Assembly (NCBI GenBank): GCA_038145705.1
Contig: JAYQQF010000011.1
Location: forward strand, 43,753-107,752
Origin: Alphaproteobacteria bacterium
GTDB taxonomy: Bacteria > Pseudomonadota > Alphaproteobacteria > SMXQ01
DNA: 64,000 bases
Reading direction: 5' to 3'
Part shown: piece after piece, positions 1-25,404 of the stretch
How positions within the stretch are numbered: the first letter of the stretch is position 1
How the letters are laid out: every line of letters starts with the position of its first letter
The notes under the pieces: generated by a model
What the model saw: only the letters and a program-made list of their open reading frames with translations
What the model was told of the DNA's origin: nothing
The model's database searches: none
Program-made: the position numbers and the translations under genes

Positions 1-670
1 GTTTGCGCACGCCGACCCAGTTGGGCTCTTCGACGATCTCGAAGTGCATCTTTTCGATCGGCCGGTAATAGTAGGTGCCCATGTCACCCTTGCCCTTCAG
101 AACAAGCGTATGGGCATGAAGGTAATAAGTGTGGCAGGGGTCGCAGGAGTTTTCCATCACCTGCAGCCAGTTGCAGTCGAGCAGCGGCAGGACGTCGATG
201 CGGCGCACCCCGTCCTTGCGCAGAAGCTGCGCCCAGCGCGGCAGTTCCGGAGCCTCACCGGGCCCCATATAGGTCCACAGCATGCCGCCCAGTTCGCGCA
301 CCGGGTAGGCGCGCTGGCGCACGTGGTTGATCAGCGTCGTGTCCTTGGGCTCGAACGGCATTTCGATGCACTTGCCGGTGCAGTCGAACTTCCACCCGTG
401 GTAGGGACAGCGCAAACCGTCGTCTTCGACGAACCCATACAGGAGCGAAGCGGACCGGTGGCAGCACTGTTCCTCCACCAGTCCGAAACGGCCCGAGCCG
501 TCGCGAAACAGGACCAGTTCTTCGCCCATCACGCGGATTTTCTTTTTCGGATTTTCCGCAGTAAGTTCCGCCGCGGGGCCGACCGGTTGCCAGTAGCGGC
601 GCATCAACTCACCCGCGGGCGTGCCCGCACCGACACGCGTCAACTCGGCATTCTGTTCGTGAGACAGCAT
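1..670 (-). CDS. Rieske [2Fe-2S] non-heme iron oxygenase alpha subunit (partial; C-terminus beyond window start)
   Basis: Minus-strand translation from ATG at 668-670: MLSHEQNAELTRVGAGTPAGELMRRYWQPV...CCHRSASL...CPYHGW Rieske CxH..CxxH motif; N-terminus parallels the two other Rieske proteins in the window. Absent from ORF track because it runs off the edge; the 44..736 plus ORF is its antisense. Confidence 0.8.
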   Translation of the reverse strand, partial: MLSHEQNAELTRVGAGTPAGELMRRYWQPVGPAAELTAENPKKKIRVMGEELVLFRDGSGRFGLVEEQCCHRSASLLYGFVEDDGLRCPYHGWKFDCTGKCIEMPFEPKDTTLINHVRQRAYPVRELGGMLWTYMGPGEAPELPRWAQLLRKDGVRRIDVLPLLDCNWLQVMENSCDPCHTYYLHAHTLVLKGKGDMGTYYYRPIEKMHFEIVEEPNWVGVRK

Positions 671-697
671 GGCTTCCTCCGTTCAGGCGCTTGCAGG

Positions 698-1456
698 CTA
701 GCCTTCGCCTGCCAGCGTCGCGTAGTAGCGCCATGACGACCGGACGTTACCCATCAGCGGCGGCATGGTGCCATCGGACGCGGTGTTTCCTCCACCTTCC
801 CGACCGTAACCCGGAATGAATGTTCTTATATCTTCGTCGGAAATCGGCCGGGGCGTACCCAAAAGATACGCCTCGTAATTCATTTCCGCCAGTTCGTTGA
901 TCTTGATCGCGGCGAGCGTCGCCTCTTCGACCGTGGGGCCAACGGTGGTGATGCCATGACCGCGCATCAGGCAGATGCGGGCGCGCCCCATGGCGGCGGC
1001 GAACTCCTCGCCCAGAAGATCGTTCTTTATCAAGATGGCGCGGTCATAAAGTGCCGGCCCTTCAACGGCAAGCCGCAGGCCCGTCGGGTCGTAAGCACCA
1101 AACACGGGTAAAATCTGTTTTTCCGTAATGGTAAAAAGCACCACGGTTTTCGGATGGACGTGAACGACGCTGTTCACCTCGGGCCGCATCCGGTAGAGCC
1201 AGGAATGGATGAACACTTCCTGCGGCGCCTTAAGGCCATCGGGACCGTCGAGCTTTTCGCCGTCGCCGTCGACACGGATGATTTCGCCCGCTGTCGTGTA
1301 GCGCACGCCCACTTCGTCGCGCCCGCGCGCGCGCACCAGGAAACCGCCGTCGCAACGGGCGCTGATGTGGCCCGTCGCCGCTTTCGTCAGGCCCAGATTG
1401 CCGATGATGCGGCAAGCCTTGGCGACCAGTTCGCGCTGTGCGGCGAATGCATCCAT
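698..1456 (-). CDS. class II aldolase/adducin family protein
   Basis: ORF 698..1630 trimmed to ATG giving MDAFAAQRELVAKACRIIGNLGL...; HVHP metal-binding motif typical of class II aldolase/adducin N-terminal domain. Confidence 0.75.
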   Translation of the reverse strand: MDAFAAQRELVAKACRIIGNLGLTKAATGHISARCDGGFLVRARGRDEVGVRYTTAGEIIRVDGDGEKLDGPDGLKAPQEVFIHSWLYRMRPEVNSVVHVHPKTVVLFTITEKQILPVFGAYDPTGLRLAVEGPALYDRAILIKNDLLGEEFAAAMGRARICLMRGHGITTVGPTVEEATLAAIKINELAEMNYEAYLLGTPRPISDEDIRTFIPGYGREGGGNTASDGTMPPLMGNVRSSWRYYATLAGEG

Positions 1457-1469
1457 CGCGTTCTCCGCC

Positions 1470-2111
1470 CTACTTCGGCAACGGCGTCCAGCCGTACAAC
1501 TCGATCGTCGACTTGCCCTGCTTGAGCGAGGCGATGGTGCGCGATTCCTTTTCTTCGCGCGACTGGGAGGCATCGAGGGCCGCCTTCGCCGCGCCCTGCG
1601 GGATGACGACGACGCCGTCGCGGTCGCCATTGATTATGTCGCCGGGCGCCACATCGACGTTACCGATGCGGATCACTTGCGCCAGAGAACCGCCTTCGTC
1701 CTTGGTCGTGCCCTGGATGGCGAGGCCCCGCGAAAACACGGGGAAGCCGATCTCTTCCAGAAGGTCGGCATCGCGCACGCAGGCATCGATCACCAGACCG
1801 GCGAGCCCGCGCTGCTGCGCGGCATGGGCCATGATTTCGCCGAAATAGCCCGCCTCATACCCGCCGCCGCAATCGACCACGAGGATGTCGCCGGGCTTCG
1901 CCTGGTAGATCGCGCGATGGATGTTGATGTTGTTGAAGGCCTTGGCCACCACGGTGAAGGCCGGCCCGCAGATCTTCCATGCGTTCGAGACCGGCTTGAT
2001 CGCCGCAGGCAAAGCGCCCTTGCGGCCCATAGCTTCATGAATGGTTGCCGAGGGAAACGTCGCCGCTCGCGCGATCGTCGCCGCGTCGGGCCGGGGAAAA
2101 TCGAAACTCAT
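1470..2111 (-). CDS. RraA-like protein (4-hydroxy-4-methyl-2-oxoglutarate aldolase / RNase E regulator family), paralog 1
   Basis: ORF 1470..2420 trimmed to MSFDFPRPDAATIARAATFPSATIHEAMG...; RraA/DlpA fold signature (SxxHEAxG, GDIxxGDxDGVVVIP). Confidence 0.75.
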   Translation of the reverse strand: MSFDFPRPDAATIARAATFPSATIHEAMGRKGALPAAIKPVSNAWKICGPAFTVVAKAFNNINIHRAIYQAKPGDILVVDCGGGYEAGYFGEIMAHAAQQRGLAGLVIDACVRDADLLEEIGFPVFSRGLAIQGTTKDEGGSLAQVIRIGNVDVAPGDIINGDRDGVVVIPQGAAKAALDASQSREEKESRTIASLKQGKSTIELYGWTPLPK

Positions 2112-2115
2112 GGCT

Positions 2116-2769
2116 CTACCTCTTTGTCTGGAGACTGTGATAGCCGTGCTTCTTGCGGGCATCGACCAGCTTCGCGCCCGCCCTGACCTCGGCGACGATG
2201 CGGGCCTCGGCCTCGGCGACCGCGGTGGCGATGTCGAGGACTTCCTTTTCCTTCTCGACCGGCACCACCAGCACGCCGTCGTCGGAGCCGACAAGGATAT
2301 CGCCCGGACGCACCTGAACATCGCCGAGGGACACGGTGACATTGGTGCCGTCGACCTCGACCCGGTCCTTGCCCGTGCGCATGAAGCGCCCGCGCGAGAA
2401 GATCGGGTAGCCGACCTCAAGCGAGCCGGCGACGTCGCGGCACACGCCGTGAATGACAGTGCCCGCGACCCCGCGCGCCTTGGCCGTCGTCGTCAGGATA
2501 TCGCCCCACACGGTGCAGTCGAGGCGGCCCGCATTGTCGAGCACCACGACGCCGCCCGGGGGCACGTCGTCGATGTAATCGCCGACCGTCCCCTTGACGA
2601 TCCCGCAGGGCCGGTATTTCAGAGTGAAGGCGCGGCCCACGACGTGATGGCCATTGGCGAGCGGCGCAAGCCCCTGTGCCATGCCGTGAATGCCGAGCCG
2701 GTCGAGCGCGTCGGAGATCGACGCGCTGGCCAGTTGCTTGAAACCTTCGATAACGGGATCGCTAGCCAT
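2116..2769 (-). CDS. RraA-like protein, paralog 2
   Basis: MASDPVIEGFKQLASASISDALDRLG...GDILVGSDDGVLVVP; same family; 4 nt from paralog 1. Confidence 0.8.
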   Translation of the reverse strand: MASDPVIEGFKQLASASISDALDRLGIHGMAQGLAPLANGHHVVGRAFTLKYRPCGIVKGTVGDYIDDVPPGGVVVLDNAGRLDCTVWGDILTTTAKARGVAGTVIHGVCRDVAGSLEVGYPIFSRGRFMRTGKDRVEVDGTNVTVSLGDVQVRPGDILVGSDDGVLVVPVEKEKEVLDIATAVAEAEARIVAEVRAGAKLVDARKKHGYHSLQTKR

Positions 2770-2770
2770 C

Positions 2771-3439
2771 TTATTTCTTGTCCTTGTTGAGCATCTGTTC
2801 GTAACCGCCGCTTTCCATCACATGGACGATGGATGCGCCGTTGCGCACGGCTTCGGCCATGCGCGCCTCGCGGGCAGCGATTTCCTCGCCCTTGGCGATG
2901 ACCTCTTCGGCGCGCGCCTGCGGAACGATGATCGTGCCGGAACCGTCGGCAACCACGTAATCGCCGGGGTGAACCTGCACGCCCGCGAACTGGATTTCCT
3001 CGTTCACGCTGTCCTGAATGACGCGCCCGCGCGCGGTGATCGGCACCACGCCCTTGGCGTAAACGGGGAATTTTGCCGCCGCCGAATCGTCGATGTCGCG
3101 ACACGCCCCGTCGATGACGATGCCGGCCAAGCCCTTGGTCGCCGCGGCAAGCGACAGCAGCCCGCCCCAGCCAGGCACGTCGGTGCGCCCGGCCAGTTCC
3201 ATCACCAGCACGTCGCCCGGCGCCGCCGCCTCGATCGCCTCGGTGCCGAGGTGACGGGTGGGCTTTTCCACCCCCTGCGGCTTCAGCTTCACCGTGACCG
3301 CGCGCCCGGCGATGCGCGGGCACGGCCACTGCGGGCGAATGCCGAGCGTCGCGCCCTTGAGGCCCAGCGCATCGAGCGCGTCCGACACCGTGCAGGCATC
3401 CAGTTTCGAAAGGCGCTCGACCAGCGCATCACGTGCCAT
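2771..3439 (-). CDS. RraA-like protein, paralog 3
   Basis: MARDALVERLSKLDACTVSDALDALG...GDYVVADGSGTIIVP; same family; 1 nt from paralog 2. Confidence 0.8.
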   Translation of the reverse strand: MARDALVERLSKLDACTVSDALDALGLKGATLGIRPQWPCPRIAGRAVTVKLKPQGVEKPTRHLGTEAIEAAAPGDVLVMELAGRTDVPGWGGLLSLAAATKGLAGIVIDGACRDIDDSAAAKFPVYAKGVVPITARGRVIQDSVNEEIQFAGVQVHPGDYVVADGSGTIIVPQARAEEVIAKGEEIAAREARMAEAVRNGASIVHVMESGGYEQMLNKDKK

Positions 3440-3495
3440 TTGGCAATCTCCCCCAGATCAAAAACCGATTTTGACGATACTACAGGACGGCGCGT

Positions 3496-5229
3496 TCACC
3501 GCAGCCCCGAAAATCCGAAACGGCGGCCGATCAGCCGCGCGATGATCGCCATGCATCCGGTCATCAGCACGATCAGCACGCCGACGACGGCGGCGGCCTC
3601 GAAGGTGCCGTCGACGATGTGATCGACCTGCAGCATGGCAAGCGGCCGGTTCTCGGCCGTCACCAGCATGGCGATGGTGGAAACGTTGCGCGCCGCCGAA
3701 ACGAAGGTAAGTAGTGCCACAGCAACCAGCACGGGACCGAGCAGCGGCAGCACGATGCGCCGGAACGTATAGGCCCAGGAGCCGCCCGCGATGAAGGAAG
3801 CCTCTTCCAGATCGCGACCGAGCTGCACCATGTTGCTTTTGACGAGCTGCACGCCCGTCGAAATGGAATTGAGGATACAGGCGACGATGAGCACGACGAG
3901 CGTGCCGTAAAGCGGCTGAAACAGATCGACGTTGAGGAACACCCACAGAAGTGCCAGGCCGAGGATGATCCCGGGCAGGCTGGCGGGCAGCCACGACAGG
4001 AAATCGAGAACCCCGCGCGCGGCATAACGCGTGCGCACGGAAATATAGGCGACCAGCGAATACCAGAAGACGCCGATCAGGGCGGCGGAACCGCCCATGA
4101 GAAGCGTGTTCGTCGTCGCGCGCAGCATCGGCGGGTCGGTCAGGACTGTTTCCCAGTGCTCGAAGGTCCAGGCGTCCTCGAGGCCGAAATGGCCGTAAAG
4201 GCTCATGAAGGTGCCCATCAGCAGGAACACGATGGGCACCACCGTGATCAGCGTGCCGAAGGCCGCGATAATGCCGAACACCGGCCAGCGCCAGCCGCGC
4301 AGACGCAGGATGTTGAAGGTGAAGCTGGAGGTGACCGTGACGTAGCTGCGCTTGTGCGACAGGTACTGCTGCCAGAAGATCAGCGGCAGCATGCTGACCA
4401 GGATGGCGAGCCCCAGCACCGTCGAGACGCCGAACATCGGCGGATCTTCCTGAATGAACTGGTAGATCTTGGTCGAGAACACATAGAAGTTGTCGGGCGG
4501 CCCCAGAATCAGCTCGATCTCGAAGGATTCGAGCGAATGGATCAGCGAAATGCACAGCGTGATCATGAACGCCGGCATCAGCACGGGAATGACGATGCGC
4601 CGAAGCGTTCCGAGCGGACTTGCCCCCGAAATGCGCGAGGCTTCCTCCATCGCGCCGTCGAGGTTGCGAAAGGCCGGCGACAGGAAGATGTACTTCGCCG
4701 CCACCGAGCGCGCCGCGATATGGGCGAAGATGATGCCGGAGAAGCTGTAGATATTGAACGGCCCCTCCTCCATCCCGAACAGGGCGACGGCGGCCTGGTT
4801 GGCAAGACCGAACTGCGGATCGAAGAGCAGGATCCAGCCCATCAGCACCGGCAGGGCGGGCAGGAAGAAGGCGACCCAGAAGAACGCATCGATCAGCTTC
4901 TTGCCGGGAAGATCGGTGCGCGCCACCGCCCAGGCGATCAGGATCGCCGCCGGGAAGGCGATGATCTCGGTGGCGATCACGCGCTTGAAGGTATTGAGGA
5001 TGGAGGGGACCATGCCCGGCGCGCTCCACGCCGTGCGCCACAATTCCAACCCGTAGTACTTCTTGCCGTCGGCGCCCTCGACCAGGAAGCTCGCGTCGAT
5101 CAGCAGTGCCAGCGGATAGGCGACCAGCATCAGCATCACGAACAGCACGACGCTGGCGCCGACCGTGCCCGGACGCAGGCGCCGCAGGAAGCCCGGCTTT
5201 GCGGCCGGAGTGATGCCTACTTCGGCCAT
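3496..5229 (-). CDS. ABC transporter permease, fused two-domain iron(III)/spermidine-type (FbpB-like)
   Basis: ORF 3496..5340 trimmed to MAEVGITPAAKPGFLRRL...; about 12 TM segments, two EAA-type permease repeats; 13-nt overlap with upstream ATPase stop. Confidence 0.8.
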   Translation of the reverse strand: MAEVGITPAAKPGFLRRLRPGTVGASVVLFVMLMLVAYPLALLIDASFLVEGADGKKYYGLELWRTAWSAPGMVPSILNTFKRVIATEIIAFPAAILIAWAVARTDLPGKKLIDAFFWVAFFLPALPVLMGWILLFDPQFGLANQAAVALFGMEEGPFNIYSFSGIIFAHIAARSVAAKYIFLSPAFRNLDGAMEEASRISGASPLGTLRRIVIPVLMPAFMITLCISLIHSLESFEIELILGPPDNFYVFSTKIYQFIQEDPPMFGVSTVLGLAILVSMLPLIFWQQYLSHKRSYVTVTSSFTFNILRLRGWRWPVFGIIAAFGTLITVVPIVFLLMGTFMSLYGHFGLEDAWTFEHWETVLTDPPMLRATTNTLLMGGSAALIGVFWYSLVAYISVRTRYAARGVLDFLSWLPASLPGIILGLALLWVFLNVDLFQPLYGTLVVLIVACILNSISTGVQLVKSNMVQLGRDLEEASFIAGGSWAYTFRRIVLPLLGPVLVAVALLTFVSAARNVSTIAMLVTAENRPLAMLQVDHIVDGTFEAAAVVGVLIVLMTGCMAIIARLIGRRFGFSGLR

Positions 5230-6329
5230 AGGCTGAGCGCGTCCTTCGGAATGTGAAGCGGGACGGTATCGCCCTCGCGCAGACGTTCGGCACGCGGTAC
5301 GTAGACCAGCAGGTTCGCGCCACCGACGCGGACATGGCATTCAAAACGATCGCCCACGAACAGCAAGGTCTCGACCCGGCCTTCGAAGGCGTTGTGGTCG
5401 GCGCCCGCCGCAGCCCGGCCGATGCGCACGCTTTCGGGCCGGATGGCCGCCGTCAGCCTGGCGCCCGGAGCGGGAACGACCCCGCAGAAGGCGGAGGAAA
5501 CGAGCGAGATGCCGCCGTCACCGAGCCGGACCTCGGCCTCGGCGCCGTTCAGACCCGCGACTTCGATCTCGATGCGCGTCGACAGGCCGATGAAATCGCG
5601 CACGAAGGGATTGGCGGGATTTTCATAGAGATCCACCGGATCGCCTACCTGCTCGACCCGGCCCGCATCCATCACCGCGACGCGATCGGCAAGGGACAGG
5701 GCTTCGGACTGGTCATGGGTGACGAGAATGACCGTGACGCCGACCTGGCGCTGCAGTTGTTTCAGTTCCACGCGCATCTGCTCGCGCAGCTTGACGTCGA
5801 GGTTGCTGAACGGCTCGTCCAGCAACAGCACGTCGGGCTTGTAGACGAGCGCGCGCGCCAGTGCCACGCGCTGCTGCTGGCCGCCCGACAGCGTCGGCGA
5901 CGGCCGGTCCTCGAACCCGCCAAGGCCGACCTGGGCGAGGGTCTCGCGCACGGCGACCTCGATCTCCGCCGACGGCAGGTTGCGCAGGCGCAGTGGATAG
6001 GCCACGGTTTCCCCTACCGTCAGGTGCGGCCAGATCGCATAGGACTGGAACACCATGCCCATGTTGCGCTTCTGGGGCGGAACGAAAATGTCGTCCTCGG
6101 CCGAATAGAGAACATTGCCGTTGAGCGTGATGGTGCCCGTATCGGGGGAATCGAGGCCGGCGATCTGGCGCAGGGTCGTCGACTTGCCGCAGCCGGACGG
6201 CCCCAGAAGGGCAAAGACCTCGCCCTCAACGATGTCGAGGGTCAGGTCGTCGACTGCTCGGAAACTGCCGAACAGCTTGGAAATATGGGCAAGCCCGAGA
6301 AACGGCTTGCCGCGGTCCGCGGAAACGAT
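5217..6329 (-). CDS. ABC transporter ATP-binding protein (FbpC/PotA-like); start codon non-canonical or mutated
   Basis: Frame is open from stop at 6375-6377 through 5217. Walker A GPSGCGKST, LSGGQQQRV signature and C-terminal TOBE/MOP-like domain present. No ATG/GTG/TTG upstream of Walker A; SD GGGGAGG sits 6 nt before ATC at 6327-6329, which aligns with the paralog's (11136) N-terminus. Confidence 0.6.
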   Translation of the reverse strand: MVSADRGKPFLGLAHISKLFGSFRAVDDLTLDIVEGEVFALLGPSGCGKSTTLRQIAGLDSPDTGTITLNGNVLYSAEDDIFVPPQKRNMGMVFQSYAIWPHLTVGETVAYPLRLRNLPSAEIEVAVRETLAQVGLGGFEDRPSPTLSGGQQQRVALARALVYKPDVLLLDEPFSNLDVKLREQMRVELKQLQRQVGVTVILVTHDQSEALSLADRVAVMDAGRVEQVGDPVDLYENPANPFVRDFIGLSTRIEIEVAGLNGAEAEVRLGDGGISLVSSAFCGVVPAPGARLTAAIRPESVRIGRAAAGADHNAFEGRVETLLFVGDRFECHVRVGGANLLVYVPRAERLREGDTVPLHIPKDALSLWPK

Positions 6330-6515
6330 GACTGGCCTCCCCGGGCCGGGCTTTCCCGGCCTCGTGATTATCGGTCAAGGGGCACGGCCAGAGCCGAGAC
6401 CCACGCTTTCTTGACCCTCGATTTCGAGTTCCTTAGTCTAATATTCGAAAGCGATTTCCCAAATCAAAAAACAAGCGACCGGCAACCCGGCACTTGCGTC
6501 TGCGAGGACCGCCCC

Positions 6516-7796
6516 ATGACGACCCGTGAAGAAAACGAACTGATGTGCCGCGTCGGGCCGGAAACGCCCGGCGGCAAGATGATGCGCCGCTACTGGCTGC
6601 CCGTTGCCTTGTCCGAAGACCTGCCCCAGGGCGGGCGCCCCGTGCCGGTGACCCTGCTCGGCGAAAAGCTCGTGCTGTTTCGCGACGAAAAGGGCCGCCC
6701 CGGACTTTTGCAGCGCGGCTGCCCGCATCGCTGCACCGATCTGAGCTATGGCCGCATCGAGGACGGCGGGCTGCGCTGCCTCTATCACGGCTGGCTGTTC
6801 GACGTCGCCGGCAACTGCACGGAGCAGCCGGGCGAACCGCCCGAAAGCACATACAAGGACGAGGTCAAGGCGCGGTCCTACCCGCTCGTGGAAAAGGCGG
6901 GGATGATTTTTGGATACATGGGGCAGGACGCGCCGCCGGAATTTCCCGACTGGGAGTTTCTGAGAGCCGGCGAGGAAAACCGCTGCCTTCTGCGCTCCCA
7001 CATCGCCTGCAACTGGCTTCAGGCGCTGGAAGGCAATATCGACCCGGTGCATCTTTCCTACCTGCACCGCCCGCTCAAGCAGGTCGACACGCGGCCCGTG
7101 CCGGGCAGCGAGAAATCCGCCGACCAGTTCTACGGCGACGACCGGCGGCCGAACCTCGATCTGGAACAGACCGATTACGGCATCCGCATCTATTCGATCC
7201 GCCGCGCCCCCGATGACAAGCAATACGTGCGCATCACCAACTTCATCATGCCGTGCCAGGCGGCCATCGTCGGCAATGAAGGCCGGGTGAACGAGGGGTA
7301 CTCGGTGCACTGGCATGTGCCCATCGACGACTACAACAACATGCGCTTCGACTTCGTCTACAACCGCGTGCGTCCGGTCGACAAGGAGAAGTACCGCAAG
7401 CGGCTCGGCAACCTGACCGGCCCTGACGGCGTGACGAAGCGCAGTCTCGAAAACCGCTATTTCCAGGATCCCGTCGCCATGCAGACGGAAAACTTCACCG
7501 GCATGGGCGGCTCGTTCAACATCCATGACGCCTTCGCCACCGAAAGCATGGGGCCGATCAGCGACCGCACCCAGGAGCATCTCGCCACCAGCGACCGCAT
7601 CATCGTGCGCGCCCGCCGGCAGGTGCTGGAAGCGATCGCCGACGTCGCCGAAGGCAAGGAGCCGCGCGGCGTGATCCGCGATCCCGCGGGGCGCGACCGC
7701 TCCCACGTCGTCGTGCTGTCGGAGGTTATCCCCCGCGACGTCGATCCCAAGGAACACTGGAAAACACGCGTTCAACGGCGTCAGGCCGCCGAATAG
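6516..7796 (+). CDS. Rieske [2Fe-2S] non-heme iron oxygenase alpha subunit (alpha-only, GbcA/Stc2/VanA-like size class)
   Basis: ORF 5253..7796 trimmed to MTTREENELMCRVGPETPGGKMMRRYWLPV...; CPHR..CLYHGW Rieske motif; 426 aa; the 5' part of the long ORF is antisense of the ABC ATPase. Confidence 0.85.
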   Translation: MTTREENELMCRVGPETPGGKMMRRYWLPVALSEDLPQGGRPVPVTLLGEKLVLFRDEKGRPGLLQRGCPHRCTDLSYGRIEDGGLRCLYHGWLFDVAGNCTEQPGEPPESTYKDEVKARSYPLVEKAGMIFGYMGQDAPPEFPDWEFLRAGEENRCLLRSHIACNWLQALEGNIDPVHLSYLHRPLKQVDTRPVPGSEKSADQFYGDDRRPNLDLEQTDYGIRIYSIRRAPDDKQYVRITNFIMPCQAAIVGNEGRVNEGYSVHWHVPIDDYNNMRFDFVYNRVRPVDKEKYRKRLGNLTGPDGVTKRSLENRYFQDPVAMQTENFTGMGGSFNIHDAFATESMGPISDRTQEHLATSDRIIVRARRQVLEAIADVAEGKEPRGVIRDPAGRDRSHVVVLSEVIPRDVDPKEHWKTRVQRRQAAE

Positions 7797-7837: not shown

Positions 7838-8959
7838 ATGACCGATTCCAACAAGCTCTGGCCGCTGAGCCGGCGCGACTTCGCCCTCGGCCTCGCGGGA
7901 ACCGCCGCCGCCACCTCGCTTCTGCGCGGCATGCCCGCTTTTGCCCAGGACTGGAAGGCGCGCTGGGATCAGGTCGTCGCCGCCGCCAACAAGGAAGGCG
8001 GGCTCGACGTCGCGGGCCCGTCGGGGCGCCAGTGGCAGCAGCTGCTGACGGATTTCGGCAAGGAATATCCGAAGATCAAGATCCGGGTGACGCCCTTCGA
8101 CAGCCGTGACTTCTGGCCGCGCATCCTGAAGGAACGGGAAGTCGGCAAGCACCTGTGGGATATCCGCGTCGGCGGCGCCGATACCCAGGTCTATCCGCTG
8201 GCGAAGGAAGGCGGGCTCGCCGATGTGCGCGCCATGTTCATCCTGCCCGATGTCGCCGATGAGTCGAACTGGTACGGCGGCTTCGACCACATGTTCCTCG
8301 ACAATGCCAAGAAATACGTGCCGAGCTTCGGCGCCTACGAAAGCCCGCTCGCGCATACCAACAAAGCCTTCATCAAGGACGGCGAGATCAAGGACATCAA
8401 GGAACTGCTGCTGCCGAAGTGGAAGGGAAAGATCGCCATGGCCAATCCGCGCGGCGGCTCAACCGCCGTCAGCATGGCGCTACTCCACAAGAAATTCGGG
8501 GCGGACTTCATCCGCGAACTGTTCACCAAGCAGCAGCCGGTCGTCGTGAAGAATTCGCGTCAGCTGATGGACTGGTTCGTATCCGGCAAGTACCCCATCG
8601 GCATCGGCCTGCCCAATTCGCAGATCGTCGCCTACCGCAAGCGCGGCGTGAAGATCGACATGGGCAAGGTTTCCGGCCTCGACATCTGGTCGGTCGGCGT
8701 CGCCGGCATCCAGGTCCTGCAGCCGCGCCCGCACCCCAACGCGACGATCGTCTTCGTCAACTGGCTGCTGAGCAAGAAGGGCCAGGAACACGTCATGCCT
8801 AAGGTGCAGATCAACAGCCGGCGCAAGGACATCCCTGTCGTCGACAAGCACCGCGAGCTTGACTGGAAGGACTACAAGAGCGCCGTTTCCGGCCAGACGG
8901 AAGAATTCACCGCCGCCATGATGGAAGCCAAGCAACTGATTCGCGAGTTGGTGAAATAG
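7838..8959 (+). CDS. ABC transporter periplasmic substrate-binding protein (family 1, iron(III)-type) with twin-arginine signal
   Basis: MTDSNKLWPLSRRDFALGLAGTAAATSLLRGMPAFAQD: SRRxFxLG Tat motif; homologous to SBP at 9996. Confidence 0.8.
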   Translation: MTDSNKLWPLSRRDFALGLAGTAAATSLLRGMPAFAQDWKARWDQVVAAANKEGGLDVAGPSGRQWQQLLTDFGKEYPKIKIRVTPFDSRDFWPRILKEREVGKHLWDIRVGGADTQVYPLAKEGGLADVRAMFILPDVADESNWYGGFDHMFLDNAKKYVPSFGAYESPLAHTNKAFIKDGEIKDIKELLLPKWKGKIAMANPRGGSTAVSMALLHKKFGADFIRELFTKQQPVVVKNSRQLMDWFVSGKYPIGIGLPNSQIVAYRKRGVKIDMGKVSGLDIWSVGVAGIQVLQPRPHPNATIVFVNWLLSKKGQEHVMPKVQINSRRKDIPVVDKHRELDWKDYKSAVSGQTEEFTAAMMEAKQLIRELVK

Positions 8960-8981: not shown

Positions 8982-9890
8982 TCAGGCGGCAGCGTCCCAG
9001 ACGGCGAACCCCATGGCGCAGCCCACCCCTTGCGGGCTGCGGTAGCAGGGTACGTAATCGACCATGGCGCCGCCCGCGCCCGCCGCCGCCGCCGCGATCA
9101 TCCAGTTGCGGATTTCGGAAGTGCCCGCGGTCAGGTCCTCGTCGCGCATGGCGGCCATGAAATCGAGATCGCCCTTTTCCAGCGCGGCGATGAAGTCGCG
9201 GTCGAGCTTCTCGTCGATCTTGGTGTGGCTCAACCCGCCGGAACCGATGAAGACGACGCGCCCTGCCGCCTTCGATGCGCGCGCAGCTGCACCAAGAACC
9301 CGACCGAAGGCGACGCAGCGCGCCGCTGTCGGCGCCGGCGGAAAATAGGTGTTTACCATCACCGGCAGGATCGGCACGTCCGCCTTCGGCAGAACGAATT
9401 CCAGCACGCGCCCGAAGGCATGGCCGAGACCGCCTTCCATCCGCGTCTTTTTCGACCATGACGGATCGAAGCCTGCGGCCATCAGCGCACCCAGCATTTC
9501 CTTTGCCAGTGCGCCATTGGCCTTGTAGTGACGAGACTGGTTTTCGATGGACGTGCCGAAGTACCGGTACTTGCGCGTCGCGTCCACCTCGTCCTCGATA
9601 AAGAGCGTGAACGGCGGCATGTTGTCGTCGAGCATGTTTTCGTGCTGGTCGTCGCCGATGATGACGATAGTGTCGGGCCGCCACGATTCGAGCTTTTCGC
9701 GCAATGTGGCGATGGCGGCCTTGCAGCGGGCTTCGTGGGCGCGCATCGCCTCGGGCGTGATTTCTTCCTCGATCCCTTGTTTGGGACTGAAGGGGCCGCG
9801 CGCGCGGCCCGGAAGTTCCGCCCATTTCTCCGCGGGCGTCAACAATTGCGGGCTATGGGACAGGGCCATGCAGCCGACGATCTTCGCCAT
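8982..9890 (-). CDS. extradiol ring-cleavage dioxygenase, class III, LigB-family catalytic subunit
   Basis: 302 aa, MAKIVGCMALSHSPQLL...GSGGLSH...; LigB/AmnB/DODA family hallmarks. Confidence 0.75.
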   Translation of the reverse strand: MAKIVGCMALSHSPQLLTPAEKWAELPGRARGPFSPKQGIEEEITPEAMRAHEARCKAAIATLREKLESWRPDTIVIIGDDQHENMLDDNMPPFTLFIEDEVDATRKYRYFGTSIENQSRHYKANGALAKEMLGALMAAGFDPSWSKKTRMEGGLGHAFGRVLEFVLPKADVPILPVMVNTYFPPAPTAARCVAFGRVLGAAARASKAAGRVVFIGSGGLSHTKIDEKLDRDFIAALEKGDLDFMAAMRDEDLTAGTSEIRNWMIAAAAAGAGGAMVDYVPCYRSPQGVGCAMGFAVWDAAA

Positions 9891-12227: not shown

Positions 12228-13942
12228 CCTTGCCAGAAGCGGGCTCGCGCGCCCGCCGCCTCTTTGAATTCCGCACGCTGCTGTTCGCGGCGGTGCTGCT
12301 GACGACGCTGTTCCTCGTCCTCTATCCCGTCGTCCTGATCGTCTTTTACAGTTTTTCCGCAGCGGAAACCGGCGCCGATTTCGTCTTCGGGCTGGACGCC
12401 TGGCAGCGCGCCCTGCGCGAGCCGGCGATGTTCGGCACCATCATCAATACCGTGAAGCTGCTGGTCGCCATCAACCTGATTTCCTTTCCCGTCGCCATCG
12501 TCATTTCATGGGTGCTGGCTCGCACGGATATCCCGTGGCGCGGCGGGCTGGAGTTCATGTTCTGGATTTCGTTCTTCCTGCCGTCGCTCTCGGTGACGCT
12601 CGGCTGGATCATGTGCCTTGACCCCGAATACGGGCTCTTGAACAAGCTGGTGATGTTCATCTTCCCCTTCATCGAGGAAGCGCCGTTCAACATCTATTCG
12701 TTCTGGGGCATCGTGTGGGCGCATCTCGGCGCCAATGCCATCGCGGTCAAGGTGATGCTGCTGACGCCGACCTTCCGCAACATCGATTCCTCGCTCGAGG
12801 AAGCTTCGCGGGTGGCAGGCGCCGGCCGTCTCGGCACCCTTGCGCGTATCGTCGTGCCCGCCATGGCGCCGGCGCTGATCGCCATCCTGCTGATGGCGAT
12901 GATCCGCGCCATGCAGTCCTTCGAAATCGAGTTGGTTCTGGGACCGGCGTTCCAGTTCTACGTCTATTCGACGAAGGTCTATACCCTGATCGCGCAGGAG
13001 CCGCCGGAATTCGGCTCCGCCTCCGCGCTTGCAACGCTGGGCCTCGCCGCCATCCTGCCGCTGATCTTCGCCCAGCGCTGGATCACCTCGCGCCGCCAGT
13101 ACGCGACGCTGACAGGCAAGCTGCAGACCCAGCCCGTCCGGCTCGGGCCGTGGCGTATACCGGTATTCCTCGCCGTGCTCACGGTCGTGCTGCTGCTGAC
13201 CGTGGTGCCGCTGGTCTTCGTCGGGCTGGCCTCGACCATGAAGCTGTTCGGCTTCTTCAACATTCCCGATCCCTACACCTTCGATCACTGGGTCACGGTG
13301 CTGACCGACGAAACCTTCGGTCAGTCGGTGACGAACACGCTGGGCATGGCGGGCGGGGCCGGAATCCTGTCGGTCGTGCTTTTCTCGCTGGTCGCCTATT
13401 TCACCGTACGCACCACTTTCAAGGCGCGCGCCGTTCTCGACTTCGTGTCCTGGCTGCCCTTCGCTGTCCCCGGCATCCTGTTCGGCGTCGGCCTCTTGTT
13501 CGTGTTCCTGGAATCGCCGCTGTTCCGGCCGCTTTACGGCACCATGTGGCTGCTGATCCTTGCCACCGTCATCAGTTCGATGACGCTCGGCGTCCAGATC
13601 ATCAAGTCGAACATGATGCAGCTCGGCAACGAGCTGGAAGAAGCCTCGCGCGTCGCAGGCGCTACCTGGTGGCATACCTTTACCCGCGTCGTGCTGCCGA
13701 TCATGGTGCCGGTGCTGCTGCTGGTCGGCATCATGAACTTCATTTCGGCGGCGCGCGACATCGCCTCGGTGGCGCTGGTGGCGACGGCGGAAACCAAGAC
13801 CCTCGCCCTTCTGCAGCTCGACTACATGGTGGAGGGCCGCTACGAGGCGGCCTCGGTCGCATCCTTCGTCGTCATCGTCCTGTCGACGGGGATCGCCCTT
13901 CTCGCCCGCGCGCTTGGCTTGCGCATCGGCATTCGCAACTAG
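12215..13942 (+). CDS. ABC transporter permease, fused two-domain (FbpB-like)
   Basis: ORF 12104..13942; GTG at 12215 gives (M)AEIALPEAGSRARRL, mirroring MAEVGITPAAKPGFLRRL of paralog 3496..5229, with the same 13-nt overlap with the ATPase stop. Confidence 0.75.
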   Translation: MAEIALPEAGSRARRLFEFRTLLFAAVLLTTLFLVLYPVVLIVFYSFSAAETGADFVFGLDAWQRALREPAMFGTIINTVKLLVAINLISFPVAIVISWVLARTDIPWRGGLEFMFWISFFLPSLSVTLGWIMCLDPEYGLLNKLVMFIFPFIEEAPFNIYSFWGIVWAHLGANAIAVKVMLLTPTFRNIDSSLEEASRVAGAGRLGTLARIVVPAMAPALIAILLMAMIRAMQSFEIELVLGPAFQFYVYSTKVYTLIAQEPPEFGSASALATLGLAAILPLIFAQRWITSRRQYATLTGKLQTQPVRLGPWRIPVFLAVLTVVLLLTVVPLVFVGLASTMKLFGFFNIPDPYTFDHWVTVLTDETFGQSVTNTLGMAGGAGILSVVLFSLVAYFTVRTTFKARAVLDFVSWLPFAVPGILFGVGLLFVFLESPLFRPLYGTMWLLILATVISSMTLGVQIIKSNMMQLGNELEEASRVAGATWWHTFTRVVLPIMVPVLLLVGIMNFISAARDIASVALVATAETKTLALLQLDYMVEGRYEAASVASFVVIVLSTGIALLARALGLRIGIRN

Positions 13943-15883: not shown

Positions 15884-15892
15884 CTTCCGGTT

Positions 15893-16669: not shown

Positions 16670-16782
16670 CGGTGTCTCTCCTCCATTTTCCGACCCGCAC
16701 GCTAGCGGCGGGGGCCGGACCTGTCCAGTGCGGCGGTTTGCCGCGAACGAAGGCTGGGATATGCTCATCAGGCAGGGAGAAA

Positions 16783-18375: not shown

Positions 18376-18415
18376 AAAACAAGAAGGGCGTCGAACACCA
18401 GAGGGGGAGCCGCTC

Positions 18416-19714: not shown

Positions 19715-19721
19715 GGAAACC

Positions 19722-20441: not shown

Positions 20442-20517
20442 GGTACGGGCCTTTCTTCGGGGGTTGAACGAAACGGCGTCCCGCCCCGGGGACGGGACGC
20501 CGCAATCACCTTGAAGA

Positions 20518-21621: not shown

Positions 21622-21755
21622 GATCAATCTCCCATTCTGTCCTGTTGATGTCCTCGATTCTGGCGCCCCTTGGTGGGGCTGTTGTATCGGGACCGGGTTG
21701 TTTGGGCCGGCAATGCCGGTACGCGTGCTGGTTACTCCTCCTCTGCTAGTGAATG

Positions 21756-23462: not shown

Positions 23463-23521
23463 TTCGCTGGTGCTCCGGAACAAAAATGGGGATGGCCCCG
23501 GCAAGCCGGGGCTATCACATC

Positions 23522-25288: not shown

Positions 25289-25404
25289 GATGTCTCCGTT
25301 CGGATGGGGTGTTGTATATGACGATCATAATGTATTACTAAAACCAGTCCACCTTGTGGACCCCCACAGTCACGATCACCGCAAATTTTTCAGATAGGCC
25401 GAAG

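What the first reader, a model, noticed from the sequence alone, without database searches (positions are those of the whole stretch)
1..6377. Seven-gene minus-strand operon: ABC importer - three tandem RraA-like paralogs - class II aldolase - Rieske oxygenase
Three distinct RraA/DlpA-fold genes sit head-to-tail with 1-4 nt spacers. Upstream is an ABC ATPase/permease pair; downstream are a class II aldolase/adducin-fold gene and an alpha-only Rieske oxygenase. RraA-fold proteins are either HMG/CHA pyruvate aldolases or RNase E regulators and form trimers/hexamers. Three tightly coupled non-identical paralogs suggest a hetero-oligomeric enzyme or a three-step set of aldol/decarboxylation reactions on an imported oxidised aromatic. 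I do not recall this arrangement as a described pathway.
Basis: partly seen in the sequence, partly recalled or inferred. Interest (0 to 1): 0.6.

Follow-up and report, generated by a model that had tools for sequence, protein, structure and literature searches.

The report
Conserved three-paralog RraA-fold enzyme module
Three different RraA/aldolase-fold genes sit head to tail in an aromatic-acid degradation operon; this set recurs across distant bacteria, and two of its members are fused into one protein in many fungi, so it is probably an uncharacterised multi-subunit or multi-step enzyme rather than a chance duplication.

Summary
On the minus strand lie an ABC ATPase (6329..5217), a fused double permease (5229..3496), three RraA-like genes (g1 3439..2771, g2 2769..2116, g3 2111..1470; spacers 1 and 4 nt), a class II aldolase-fold gene (1456..698) and a Rieske oxygenase cut by the window edge (670..1).

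- The paralogs are 30-36% identical. Each is under purifying selection (dN/dS 0.07-0.35) and keeps the catalytic G101/R123/D124/E199 core.
- g3 is a LigK-type HMG/CHA aldolase. g1 and g2 match no curated family.
- The g1->g2 order recurs in MAGs labelled Alphaproteobacteria, Binatia and Deltaproteobacteria, and in Bradyrhizobium, Novosphingobium, Rhizobium and Rhodococcus plasmids. Common neighbours are LigY/LigJ-like amidohydrolases, RidA, LigB-type dioxygenases and LigXa-type Rieske oxygenases.
- Natural fusions exist: g1~g2 in bacteria and about 90 ascomycete-type proteins, g3~g1, and RidA~g1.
- I found no paper or solved structure describing a heteromeric or tandem RraA-fold enzyme.

Best reading: this is the lower-pathway module of a ring-cleavage route. 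g1/g2 are probably physically associated and do Mg-enolate chemistry (hydration, tautomerisation or decarboxylation) that feeds the g3 aldolase. The hetero-oligomer and the substrate are inferred, not shown. The operon also runs past the window edge, and its binding protein is encoded divergently.

The parts
5217..6329 (-). ABC transporter ATP-binding subunit (PotA/PhnT2-like, TOBE_2 C-terminus). It probably starts at a non-canonical ATC.
   Evidence: Pfam ABC_tran 2e-35 and TOBE_2 6e-14. NCBIfam best hit is PhnT2 at 339 bits, below its 457.7 cut-off. No ATG/GTG/TTG lies between the in-frame stop at 6377-6375 and the Walker A motif. GGGAGG is followed 6 nt later by ATC; orthologs carry ATC/ATA-GTG or ATC-ATT.
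3496..5229 (-). Fused double-domain ABC permease (2 x BPD_transp_1).
   Evidence: Pfam PF00528 with two stretches. Best NCBIfam hit is PhnU2 at 159 bits, far below its cut-off. Overlaps the ATPase stop by 13 nt.
2771..3439 (-). RraA1 = 'g1' type RraA-fold protein, 222 aa. Catalytic core kept, D102->G, distal pocket changed.
   Evidence: PF03737 3e-38. No NCBIfam cut-off reached. Nearest PDB entry is 3k4i. G102 in 126 of 127 orthologs; R123/D124/E199 invariant or nearly so; T145->R, K147->R, R195->I/V. dN/dS 0.07-0.11.
2116..2769 (-). RraA2 = 'g2' type RraA-fold protein, 217 aa, 1 nt after g1. Core kept; H75->G, D119->H, D173->S/T.
   Evidence: PF03737 1e-35. No NCBIfam cut-off reached. Nearest PDB entry is 3k4i, 169 bits. 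Residue table. dN/dS 0.07-0.13.
1470..2111 (-). RraA3 = 'g3', a LigK/ProA-type HMG/CHA aldolase / oxaloacetate decarboxylase homolog, 213 aa, 4 nt after g2.
   Evidence: NF006731 at 191.8 bits, above its 179 cut-off. TIGR02798 at 181.7 bits, below 304.5. Nearest PDB entry is 3noj, 122 bits. Keeps R40, H75, G101, R123, D124, G144, T145, K147, R195 and E199 (residue roles from PMC5065237).
698..1456 (-). Class II aldolase/adducin-fold protein, most like PhtC-type aromatic-acid decarboxylases.
   Evidence: PF00596 7e-37. NF053537 (3,4-dihydroxyphthalate decarboxylase) at 190.3 bits against a 200 cut-off; the next family scores 81 bits. HxH and GHG metal motifs are visible in the translation. Co-inherited with the triplet in L001, L004, L008, L010-15, L025 and L027.
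1..670 (-). N-terminal 223 aa of an alpha-only Rieske oxygenase (phthalate-dioxygenase / LigXa type). The gene runs off the window.
   Evidence: PF00355 1e-21. The full 391-aa gene in L001 has Rieske + LigXa_C. Nearest solved structures are the phthalate 4,5-dioxygenase alpha subunits 7fhr and 7fjl, 208 and 195 bits.
6330..6515 (.). Divergent intergenic region between the minus-strand operon and the plus-strand Rieske/binding-protein unit. Presumed promoter region.
   Evidence: Gene coordinates. The consensus scan found no sigma-70-like site and nothing above shuffled expectation, so this role is inferred from position only.
6516..7796 (+). Second LigXa-type Rieske oxygenase, 426 aa, divergently transcribed.
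   Evidence: PF19301 LigXa_C 8e-40 and PF00355 2e-18.
7838..8959 (+). Periplasmic solute-binding protein (SBP_bac_1/8/11 type). Candidate partner of the ATPase and permease.
   Evidence: Pfam. 36-41% identical to binding proteins that sit next to g1-g2 in L004 and next to the g1~g2 fusion in L030.
8982..9890 (-). Single-subunit LigB-family (class III) extradiol dioxygenase.
   Evidence: PF02900 9e-21. 30-36% identical to LigB-like genes next to g1-g2 in Bradyrhizobium (L022), Rhodococcus (L029) and L008. Nearest PDB entry is MhpB-type 8k04.

Best explanation
The three RraA-fold genes form one conserved, co-inherited enzyme module. It finishes an extradiol ring-cleavage pathway for imported, oxygenated aromatic carboxylates.

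Upstream steps, inferred from the families present:
- uptake by the ABC system;
- oxygenation or O-demethylation by phthalate-dioxygenase/LigXa-type Rieske enzymes;
- decarboxylation by the PhtC-like class II aldolase-fold protein;
- ring opening by a LigB-type or bicupin dioxygenase.

Within the module:
- g3 (RraA3) is the terminal Mg2+-dependent HMG/CHA-type aldolase / oxaloacetate decarboxylase. It releases pyruvate.
- g1 and g2 (RraA1, RraA2) are an ancient partner pair that most likely associates physically. One candidate architecture is a g1 trimer stacked on a g2 trimer, possibly also docking g3.
- g1/g2 would use the same metal-bound 2-oxo-acid enolate chemistry on the polycarboxylated ring-fission product just before aldol cleavage. 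Candidate reactions are hydration or keto-enol tautomerisation of a 2-hydroxy-dienoate / 2-oxo-enoate (such as the products of LigY- or LigI-type enzymes), or vinylogous decarboxylation.

Status of each step:
- Shown: gene order, conservation, purifying selection, an intact catalytic core, fusions, and recurrent neighbours.
- Inferred: the hetero-oligomer, the reaction type, and the substrate.
For: (1) Anatomy. Spacers are 1 and 4 nt, with Shine-Dalgarno-like sequences inside the preceding gene.

(2) The paralogs are old (30-36% identity) yet all constrained. Against four orthologous loci, dN/dS is 0.07-0.11 for g1, 0.07-0.13 for g2 and 0.11-0.35 for g3.

(3) Catalytic residues. G101, R123 (enolate-stabilising, essential), D124 and E199 (metal ligands) are invariant or nearly so in about 127 g1, 128 g2 and all g3 sequences. 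Residue roles come from PMC5065237.
- g3 also keeps the distal pocket R40/H75/G144/T145/K147/R195.
- g1 and g2 replace it with more cationic residues (T145->R/K, K147->R, R195->I/V).
- g1 has lost D102 in 126 of 127 sequences.

(4) g3 passes the NCBIfam CHA-aldolase model NF006731 (191.8 > 179). g1 and g2 pass none.

(5) Synteny.
- The full triplet in the same order occurs in Alphaproteobacteria MAGs (L010-15, L017), Binatia (L004), a Deltaproteobacteria MAG (L008), two Mb-scale contigs (L025, L027) and Rhizobium etli (L024).
- The g1->g2 pair occurs in Bradyrhizobium CB82, Novosphingobium pNL1 and pLA1, and Rhodococcus koreensis.

(6) Rosetta-stone fusions, typed with my own g1/g2/g3 HMMs.
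- g1~g2: P0241 and P0242 clusters in bacteria, and about 90 ascomycete-type proteins of 450-460 aa. All 120 fusions keep G101/R123/D124 in both halves.
- g3~g1 followed by a separate g2 gene (P0244, L031).
- Degenerate g1~g3 (P0304).
- RidA~g1 (P0250, P0262, P0278).

(7) AlphaFold2 of the natural g1~g2 fusion with only 11 sequences gives pLDDT 84.6 and pTM 0.72. I read this as hinting at a defined inter-domain arrangement.

(8) Recurrent neighbours.
- An orthologous Amidohydro_2 (36-67% identity between loci). Its nearest solved relatives are the meta-cleavage hydrolase LigY (273 bits) and the 4-oxalomesaconate hydratase LigJ (about 200 bits).
- LigB-type dioxygenases, LigXa-type Rieske oxygenases and LigC-like GFO_IDH dehydrogenases.

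(9) FlDet shows that the RraA fold can catalyse dehydration plus decarboxylation of a 4-hydroxy-2-oxo acid (PMC8563752).
Against: - No direct evidence of a complex. The tools model only single chains, and pTM 0.72 on a shallow alignment is weak.
- g1-type genes at 67-91% identity occur without an adjacent g2 in L006/7, L016, L018 and L020.
- The g2-type protein 3k4i crystallised on its own, with three chains.
- Fusions and operon coupling also arise between consecutive enzymes that do not form obligate complexes.
- The window itself lacks the LigY/LigJ-like amidohydrolase and RidA seen elsewhere, so pathway context transferred from other loci may not apply here.
- No neighbour reaches a curated equivalog cut-off, so the substrate is unknown.
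- The choice among hydratase, tautomerase and decarboxylase rests on chemical analogy only.
Confidence: 0.55

Rival explanations
1. Three independent homo-oligomeric enzymes. Each paralog forms its own trimer or hexamer and catalyses a separate consecutive or parallel reaction (for example hydratase, decarboxylase, aldolase). Tight linkage and fusions reflect co-regulation or channeling of one pathway, not an obligate heteromer.
For: - All characterised or solved RraA-fold proteins are homo-oligomers. The PDB hits of a natural g1~g2 fusion model are all single-domain chains, TMq <= 0.45.
- The g2-type protein 3k4i crystallised alone.
- Solo g1-type genes exist.
- Each paralog has a complete R123/D124/E199 core, so each could be active by itself.
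Against: - The fixed g1->g2 order holds across phyla with 1-nt spacers or 4-nt overlaps.
- g1 and g2 have near-identical evolutionary rates.
- g1~g2 fusions arose in at least three sequence types, including a large fungal family.
- g1 almost never keeps both D102 and E199 (1 of 247), which suggests a specialised, possibly non-autonomous site.
Confidence: 0.33
2. Redundant isozymes. All three are 4-hydroxy-2-oxo-acid pyruvate aldolases with different substrate ranges, serving the several ring-cleavage routes encoded around them.
For: - The family's best-known activity is aldol cleavage, and the catalytic core is kept in all three.
- The locus encodes several oxygenases, decarboxylases and two kinds of ring-cleavage dioxygenase.
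Against: - g1 and g2 lack the distal pocket of HMG/CHA aldolase (H75 in g2; T145, K147 and R195 in both) and score far below both aldolase models (87-104 bits against cut-offs of 179 and 304.5).
- Isozymes would not be expected to keep a fixed order, travel as a pair without g3 (L022, L023, L028), or fuse to each other.
Confidence: 0.08
3. Non-enzymatic RraA-type regulators of RNase E or of other proteins, or decaying tandem duplicates.
For: Automatic annotations call many homologs 'regulator of RNase E activity RraA'.
Against: - RraA equivalog models score 46-74 bits against cut-offs of 136-241.
- The aldolase-type metal and enolate residues are kept.
- The context is catabolic throughout.
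- dN/dS is 0.07-0.35 and pairwise identity 30-36%, which excludes recent duplication and decay.
Confidence: 0.03

Closest known systems
HMG/CHA aldolase (LigK / ProA / GalC; PDB 3noj), last enzyme of the protocatechuate 4,5-cleavage and gallate pathways
   Same: - Same fold (PF03737).
- Same Mg2+/enolate core: G101, R123, D124, E199'.
- Same kind of genomic context (LigAB, LigC-like, LigJ/LigI/LigY-like genes).
- g3 keeps the whole pocket and passes NF006731.
   Different: - LigK acts as a homo-hexamer encoded by one gene. Here it is preceded by two further paralogs.
- Those paralogs change the distal pocket (T145->R/K, K147->R, R195->I/V; g1 D102->G; g2 H75->G).
- They fail both aldolase models, travel as a fixed pair, and are fused to each other in other organisms.
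PSPTO_3204 of Pseudomonas syringae (PDB 3k4i), an uncharacterised RraA-like structural-genomics target
   Same: Closest solved relative of g2 (169 bits) and g1 (119 bits). My HMMs type it as g2 (223 versus 156 bits).
   Different: It was crystallised alone (three chains) and has canonical D102, D119 and D173. No function is known. I did not examine whether it has a g1 partner.
FlDet, the RraA-family 2-keto-3-deoxy-glucarate dehydratase/decarboxylase of Flavobacterium sp. UMI-01 (PMC8563752)
   Same: It shows that the fold can dehydrate and decarboxylate a 4-hydroxy-2-oxo acid. That is the reverse or analogue of the chemistry proposed for g1/g2.
   Different: A single-gene enzyme of uronate catabolism. 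It was not compared by sequence here because the sequence is not held. No partner paralog is reported.
4-oxalocrotonate decarboxylase / vinylpyruvate hydratase (XylI/XylJ) complex of the classical meta-cleavage pathway (from my own knowledge)
   Same: Two paralogous metal-dependent enzymes encoded side by side. They form a complex and act just before a pyruvate aldolase on a ring-fission 2-oxo/2-hydroxy-dienoate. This is the functional analogy for g1/g2 followed by g3.
   Different: A different fold (FAH family). No FAH-type genes lie in the g1/g2 operons examined; the only FAH-family gene seen (L029) is in a divergently transcribed neighbouring cluster. This is an analogy only and was not tested.
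[quoted passage not shown]
   Same: The families around g1/g2 map onto it:
- LigXa_C Rieske oxygenases.
- Single-subunit LigB-type dioxygenases.
- An Amidohydro_2 whose best solved relative is LigY (273 bits).
- A decarboxylase.
- A LigK-type aldolase.
   Different: - No equivalog-level matches.
- The decarboxylase here is class II aldolase-fold, not LigW.
- SYK-6 is not known to use extra RraA paralogs.
- The window itself lacks the LigY-like gene.

Membership tests
RraA-like superfamily (Pfam PF03737) | Full-length match above the gathering score | tested here: met
   g1 131.7, g2 123.3 and g3 143.4 bits against a cut-off of 24.5, each covering profile positions 2-152 of 152.
HMG/CHA aldolase (LigK/ProA/GalC) | Score above the curated equivalog cut-offs (NF006731 179 bits; TIGR02798 304.5 bits) | tested here: inconclusive
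   g3 scores 191.8 on NF006731 (passes) but 181.7 on TIGR02798 (fails). g1 scores 104.1 and 96.6; g2 scores 92.2 and 87.2; both fail both models.
HMG/CHA aldolase (LigK/ProA/GalC) | Catalytic and metal residues G101, R123, D124 and E199' (3noj numbering) | tested here: met
   Invariant or near-invariant in 127 g1, 128 g2 and all g3 sequences, and in both halves of 120 fusions. Residue roles from PMC5065237.
HMG/CHA aldolase (LigK/ProA/GalC) | Distal substrate/phosphate pocket R40, H75, G144, T145, K147, R195, plus second-shell D102 (the D102 role is from my own knowledge of Wang et al. 2010) | tested here: not met
   Met by g3, which has E at position 102. Not met by g1 (G102, A144, R145, R147, I/V195) or g2 (G75, K145, R147, I/V195). 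So g1 and g2 are not filed as HMG/CHA aldolases.
HMG/CHA aldolase (LigK/ProA/GalC) | Cleaves HMG/CHA to pyruvate and decarboxylates oxaloacetate | not testable with these tools
   Needs an enzyme assay.
RraA, regulator of RNase E | Score above the RraA equivalog cut-offs (NF006875 136 bits; TIGR02998 241 bits); about 160 aa without the C-terminal helical extension | tested here: not met
   54.0, 46.6 and 73.8 bits on NF006875. The proteins are 213-222 aa and carry the C-terminal helix that holds E199.
PhtC 3,4-dihydroxyphthalate decarboxylase (class II aldolase fold) | Score above the NF053537 cut-off (200 bits) | tested here: inconclusive
   190.3 bits, just below the cut-off. The next family scores 81 bits. 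PF00596 membership is met, 127.6 against 22.2.
Phthalate-dioxygenase / LigXa-type alpha-only Rieske oxygenases | Rieske [2Fe-2S] domain plus LigXa_C catalytic domain, with no beta-subunit gene | tested here: met
   PF00355 and PF19301 in the full-length ortholog (L001) and in 6516..7796. Nearest structures are 7fhr and 7fjl. No beta-subunit ORF is adjacent. Substrate specificity was not tested.
Hetero-oligomeric enzyme (g1/g2, with or without g3) | Subunits physically associate and activity depends on the association | not testable with these tools
   Only indirect support: conserved adjacency and order, fusions, and pTM 0.72 for a natural fusion. Multimer modelling and biochemistry were not available.

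The most novel reading that the evidence does not exclude
g1 and g2, possibly with g3, form an obligate hetero-oligomer. One candidate architecture is stacked g1 and g2 trimers; another is a mixed ring. To my knowledge this would be the first heteromeric member of the RraA / HMG-CHA aldolase superfamily. It would be conserved from bacteria to ascomycete fungi, where the two subunits are fused. It would catalyse a step with no assigned enzyme in these organisms, such as hydration or tautomerisation of a carboxylated 2-hydroxy-dienoate released by LigY/LigI-type enzymes, and channel the product to the aldolase subunit.
Probability: 0.35. Interest if true: 0.75.

Novelty: new variant of a known kind. 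Interest (0 to 1): 0.62.

Why it matters
- RraA-fold proteins are among the most mis-annotated bacterial proteins. They are labelled 'RNase E regulator', 'demethylmenaquinone methyltransferase' or 'DlpA'.
- Here a large, coherent sub-family pair (g1/g2) is inherited together, repeatedly fused, and embedded in aromatic ring-cleavage clusters. It is found in uncultured soil and water bacteria, in cultured Bradyrhizobium, Novosphingobium, Rhizobium and Rhodococcus, and as a fusion in Aspergillus, Penicillium, Fusarium and Trichoderma.
- Assigning its reaction would fill a gap in lower pathways for lignin-derived and phthalate-like aromatics. It would also correct thousands of annotations.
- If the heteromer is real, it would add a new quaternary architecture to a well-studied fold.
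- The cultured carriers and the fungal fusions make this directly testable.

Tried and rejected
- **Recent duplication or pseudogenes:** rejected by 30-36% identity, dN/dS 0.07-0.35 and an intact catalytic core.
- **RNase E regulators:** rejected by model scores and context.
- **Genome-collection scan:** I ran it with a single protein, so it reached only close relatives (12 Alphaproteobacteria/Proteobacteria MAG loci). Plasmid tblastn and exact-protein contig look-ups partly made up for this.
- **Mixed alignment for AlphaFold:** MAFFT placed all single-domain g1 and g2 sequences on the C-terminal half of the fusion (alignment A1), so it was unusable. I used the 11-sequence fusion alignment A2 instead.
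- **Foldseek of the fusion model against the PDB:** returned only single-domain homo-oligomer chains. It cannot judge domain packing.
- **Literature:** six searches for RraA with decarboxylase/lignin, heteromer/paralogs, gene cluster/catabolism, RidA/amidohydrolase, oxalomesaconate/hydratase and heterotrimer found no description of tandem or heteromeric RraA-like enzymes. A seventh, for the fungal 'demethylmenaquinone methyltransferase' name, and three fungal and Rid-family papers do not mention them. The 2010 structure paper is not held.
- **Promoter and terminator scan of 1..7000:** nothing above shuffled expectation.
- **NCBIfam on the neighbouring amidohydrolases, one of the two cupins and the GFO_IDH gene:** the amidohydrolases and that cupin had no hit, and the other cupin and the GFO_IDH gene scored far below every curated cut-off.
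- **A. oryzae locus of the fusion:** no obvious conserved catabolic cluster.

Full report
**Observation**

ORF listing, targeted translations and start-site inspection give the following map on the minus strand.

| Gene | Coordinates | Size or note |
|---|---|---|
| ABC ATPase | 6329..5217 | |
| Fused double permease | 5229..3496 | 13-nt overlap with the ATPase |
| RraA1 (g1) | 3439..2771 | 222 aa, after a 56-nt gap |
| RraA2 (g2) | 2769..2116 | 217 aa, 1-nt spacer |
| RraA3 (g3) | 2111..1470 | 213 aa, 4-nt spacer |
| Class II aldolase-fold gene | 1456..698 | 252 aa, 13-nt gap |
| Rieske oxygenase | 670..<1 | 27-nt gap; cut by the window edge |

Pfam confirms every family call: RraA-like at 3e-38, 1e-35 and 9e-42; Aldolase_II at 7e-37; Rieske at 1e-21; BPD_transp_1 twice; ABC_tran plus TOBE_2.

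- Contigs that carry the identical genes (L001/L002) show that the Rieske gene is 391 aa with a LigXa_C domain. Two bicupin genes and a 458-aa binding protein follow it, so 'seven genes' is a window-edge artefact.
- The binding protein that could serve the ATPase and permease is encoded divergently (7838..8959, +), behind a second LigXa-type Rieske gene (6516..7796, +). A LigB-family extradiol dioxygenase (9890..8982, -) and a second complete ABC set follow.
- The ATPase reading frame has no ATG, GTG or TTG between the in-frame stop at 6377-6375 and the Walker A motif. A GGGAGG box is followed 6 nt later by ATC at 6329. Orthologs have ATC/ATA-GTG or ATC-ATT at the same place.

**The three paralogs are old, constrained and catalytically intact**

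Pairwise identity is 36% (g1/g2), 30% (g1/g3) and 31% (g2/g3). Against orthologs in four related MAG contigs, dN/dS is 0.07-0.11 for g1, 0.07-0.13 for g2 and 0.11-0.35 for g3.

I aligned about 127 g1-type, 128 g2-type and several g3-type sequences with the P. putida HMG/CHA aldolase 3noj. Residue roles come from Mazurkewich and Seah 2016 (PMC5065237): R123 is essential and stabilises the pyruvate enolate; D124 and E199 are the acidic metal-binding residues; G101 lines the pyruvate pocket; R40, N71, H75, G144, T145, K147 and R195 line the distal or phosphate site.

- All three groups keep G101, R123, D124 and E199.
- g3 also keeps R40, H75, G144, T145, K147 and R195.
- g1 has D102->G (126 of 127), G144->A, T145->R, K147->R and R195->I/V.
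- g2 has H75->G, T145->K, K147->R, R195->I/V and, in the triplet-type orthologs, D119->H and D173->S/T.

So g3 is an ordinary LigK-type aldolase. It passes NCBIfam NF006731 (191.8 > 179) though not the stricter TIGR02798, and its nearest structure is 3noj. g1 and g2 keep the metal/enolate machinery but have a different, more cationic distal pocket. They reach no curated family cut-off. Their nearest structure is the uncharacterised PSPTO_3204, 3k4i.

**Conservation elsewhere**

RraA1 and RraA2 each have thousands of homologs (3,372 and 7,966 proteins at E <= 1e-10). The 120 best listed for each are 61-95% identical and come almost entirely from metagenomes.

Context look-ups and my tblastn typing find the full g1-g2-g3 triplet in the same order in these places:
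- Alphaproteobacteria MAGs (L010-L015, L017);
- a Binatia contig (L004);
- a Deltaproteobacteria MAG (L008);
- two megabase-scale contigs (L025, L027).

These loci repeatedly also carry a class II aldolase-fold gene, Amidohydro_2 genes, LigXa-type Rieske genes, cupins, LigA/LigB, a GFO_IDH (LigC-like) dehydrogenase and binding proteins.

Plasmid tblastn extends this to cultured organisms.
- Bradyrhizobium sp. CB82: LigB-like gene divergent from amidohydrolase-RidA-g1-g2.
- N. aromaticivorans pNL1: RidA-g1-g2, with g2 mis-annotated as 'diguanylate cyclase'.
- N. pentaromativorans pLA1: oxygenase alpha/beta subunits, then amidohydrolase-RidA-g1-g2.
- Rhodococcus koreensis: CHA aldolase, LigB-like, g1, g2, FAD enzyme, acyl-CoA synthetase, RidA, amidohydrolase.
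- Rhizobium etli: three RraA genes with 4-nt overlaps, then an aminotransferase, an amino-acid dehydrogenase and an alpha/beta hydrolase.

The amidohydrolases are mutually 36-67% identical. Their best solved relatives are the meta-cleavage hydrolase LigY (273 bits for the Bradyrhizobium one) and the 4-oxalomesaconate hydratase LigJ (about 200 bits).

In the close relative L011, this amidohydrolase sits directly upstream of g1, where the window has the ABC permease. The window itself has no such amidohydrolase and no RidA. The triplet therefore behaves as a cassette that recombines with different upstream partners.

Counter-examples exist. g1-type genes without an adjacent g2 occur in L006/7, L016, L018 and L020.

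**Fusions**

An exhaustive HMMER search of 1.84 billion cluster representatives with RraA1 returned two-domain proteins as its top hits.

- P0241 (436 aa), P0242 (454 aa) and P0243 (453 aa) are g1~g2 fusions.
- P0244 (442 aa) is g3~g1. A separate g2 gene follows it, overlapping by 4 nt (L031).
- P0304 is a degenerate g1 (RQ in place of RD) fused to g3.
- P0250, P0262 and P0278 are RidA~g1 fusions; PF01042 is confirmed.

The fusions are in frame, with linkers of about 12-45 residues. They recur in several samples and sources.

Searching with P0241 shows that g1~g2 fusions of 450-460 aa are widespread in Ascomycota, including Aspergillus, Penicillium, Fusarium, Trichoderma, Lasiodiplodia and Diaporthe. 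They are annotated 'demethylmenaquinone methyltransferase family', 'RraA family' or 'DlpA'. They also occur in bacteria, for example an Acidimicrobiales MAG. A further bacterial locus reads Amidohydro_2, RraA-like, RidA, g1~g2 fusion (L035).

In 120 fusions, both halves always keep G101, R123 and D124.

The g1 half comes in two states, G102 with E199 or D102 with Q199. Both acidic residues occur together in only 1 of 247 g1 sequences. From my own knowledge of the 3noj structure, D102 and E199' from the neighbouring subunit hold waters on the same Mg2+. If so, this pattern hints that g1 subunits neighbour each other, as in a g1 trimer. It may reflect only one or two evolutionary events, so I treat it as a lead.

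AlphaFold2 on P0241 with the 11-sequence fusion alignment gave mean pLDDT 84.6 and pTM 0.72, with a disordered linker at 209-219. I read this as higher than expected for two freely placed equal domains, but it is weak evidence. Foldseek against the PDB returns only single-domain homo-oligomeric RraA-fold chains with TMq <= 0.45. No tandem or heteromeric structure has been solved.

**Mechanism**

*Shown:* a conserved, translationally coupled, purifying-selected set of three RraA-fold genes with intact Mg/enolate cores. One is LigK-like. Two form a fixed-order pair that is often fused. Their habitual neighbours are enzymes of extradiol ring cleavage.

*Inferred:*
- The operon imports an aromatic carboxylate.
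- It oxygenates or demethylates it with phthalate-dioxygenase/LigXa-type Rieske enzymes (nearest structures 7fhr and 7fjl).
- It decarboxylates it with the PhtC-like protein (190 bits against a 200 cut-off).
- It opens the ring with the LigB-type or bicupin dioxygenases.
- g1/g2 then act on the polycarboxylated 2-oxo/2-hydroxy-dienoate product by metal-stabilised enolate chemistry: hydration, keto-enol or allylic tautomerisation, or vinylogous decarboxylation.
- g3 cleaves the resulting 4-hydroxy-2-oxo acid to pyruvate.

Two precedents support this kind of chemistry and organisation. FlDet is an RraA-family dehydratase/decarboxylase of a 4-hydroxy-2-oxo acid (PMC8563752). From my own knowledge, the XylI/XylJ decarboxylase-hydratase complex of the classical meta pathway is a pair of paralogs acting just before the aldolase.

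I rate the pieces as follows: module-level reading about 0.85, physical g1/g2 association about 0.55, specific reaction type about 0.3.

**Rivals**

- The main rival is three separate homo-oligomeric enzymes whose linkage and fusion reflect pathway coupling only. Solo g1 genes and the homomeric 3k4i crystal support it.
- Redundant aldolase isozymes are unlikely, given the altered pockets, the model scores and the pair's independence from g3.
- RNase E regulation and recent duplication or decay are effectively excluded.

**Comparison with what is known, and novelty**

The fold, the g3 enzyme, the Rieske and LigB families and the general logic of a meta-cleavage lower pathway are all known. New is the conserved multi-paralog (g1/g2, with or without g3) organisation with Rosetta-stone fusions spanning bacteria and fungi, in sub-families with no curated model, no assigned reaction and no solved heteromeric structure.

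Seven full-text searches and several targeted readings found no description. The library misses most subscription journals, so prior description cannot be fully excluded. I classify the finding as a new variant of a known kind.

**Wider context of the window**

The surrounding 64 kb is a catabolic island on a chromosome. L21, L27 and Obg-like genes lie at 61-63 kb, judged from their N-terminal sequences only. The island carries further ABC sets, a TauD-family dioxygenase, a second class II aldolase-fold gene, a third LigXa-type Rieske gene, a GntR regulator, a UbiD decarboxylase, a TPP enzyme and a molybdenum hydroxylase. This fits an uncultured alphaproteobacterium specialised on oxidised or carboxylated aromatics.

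Noticed in passing
window 6327-6377 (minus strand): The ABC ATPase gene lacks any ATG/GTG/TTG before its Walker A motif. A conserved GGGAGG box is followed by ATC here and in L010, ATC/ATA-GTG in L012 and L014, and ATC-ATT in L013. This suggests near-cognate (ATC/ATT) initiation, or recent loss of a GTG start.
   Followed up: partly
g1-type proteins in general (window 2771-3439; fusions P0241-P0514): g1 almost never carries both second-shell acidic residues. The state is G102+E199 in 126 of 127 unfused and about 26 fused sequences, or D102+Q199 in about 92 mostly fungal fusions and in R. etli. Both occur together in 1 of 247. In 3noj these residues, from adjacent subunits, share one Mg2+ site, which hints at a g1-g1' interface. 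It may reflect only one or two evolutionary events.
   Followed up: partly
P0243, P0395, P0408-P0512 (fungal proteins); L033/L034 (A. oryzae): g1~g2 fusions of about 455-460 aa are widespread in Ascomycota (Aspergillus, Penicillium, Fusarium, Trichoderma, Diaporthe and others). They are annotated as 'demethylmenaquinone methyltransferase family' or 'DlpA'. The A. oryzae neighbourhood shows no obvious conserved catabolic cluster; HpcH_HpaI, DAO and MFS genes are nearby.
   Followed up: partly
P0250, P0262, P0278; L022, L023, L028, L029, L035: RidA (PF01042) is fused to g1 in some metagenomic proteins. It also sits directly upstream of g1 in Bradyrhizobium, Novosphingobium and other loci, usually after a LigY/LigJ-like Amidohydro_2. 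Its role is unexplained; it could act as a tautomerase or as an enamine deaminase.
   Followed up: partly
L011 10670-11321: In a 94%-identical relative (an 839-kb MAG contig) g2 is split by an apparent frameshift. A LigY/LigJ-like amidohydrolase replaces the ABC permease directly upstream of g1. The split could be a sequencing error or a real pseudogene; I did not resolve this.
   Followed up: no
L023 1128-1796 and L028 10658-11314 (Novosphingobium plasmids); P0202: g2-type RraA-fold genes are annotated 'diguanylate cyclase' in RefSeq/GenBank records. By the g2 typing here (P0202 is a top hit of the RraA2 search) this is evidently a propagated mis-annotation.
   Followed up: partly
window 13939-14925 (-), 35064-36059 (+): Two ORFs of about 330 aa have N-termini that, from memory, resemble 4,5-dihydroxyphthalate decarboxylase-type proteins. 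The first has a weak NMT1 hit. NMT1_3 genes also lie near the triplet in L004 and L025.
   Followed up: no
window 15014-27819: Further catabolic genes: TauD-family dioxygenase (15014-15883), second class II aldolase-fold gene (15893-16768, -), third LigXa-type Rieske (18368-19714), GntR/FCD regulator (19722-20441, -), TctC-like receptor, UbiD-family decarboxylase (21756-23588, -), TPP enzyme (23522-25288, -) and a molybdenum hydroxylase large subunit (25354-27819).
   Followed up: partly
L004 3614-4399, L025 8415-9209, L027 8402-9196: A 261-264 aa 'Haem_oxygenas_2' (iron-containing redox enzyme) gene lies upstream of the triplet on the opposite strand in three distant loci (immediately upstream in L025 and L027). 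It is absent from the window. Function unknown.
   Followed up: no
window 16768-18192 (-): A 474-aa ORF between the class II aldolase-fold gene and the third Rieske gene has no Pfam hit at E <= 1e-4. It may be a spurious ORF in this GC-rich DNA, or an unknown protein.
   Followed up: no
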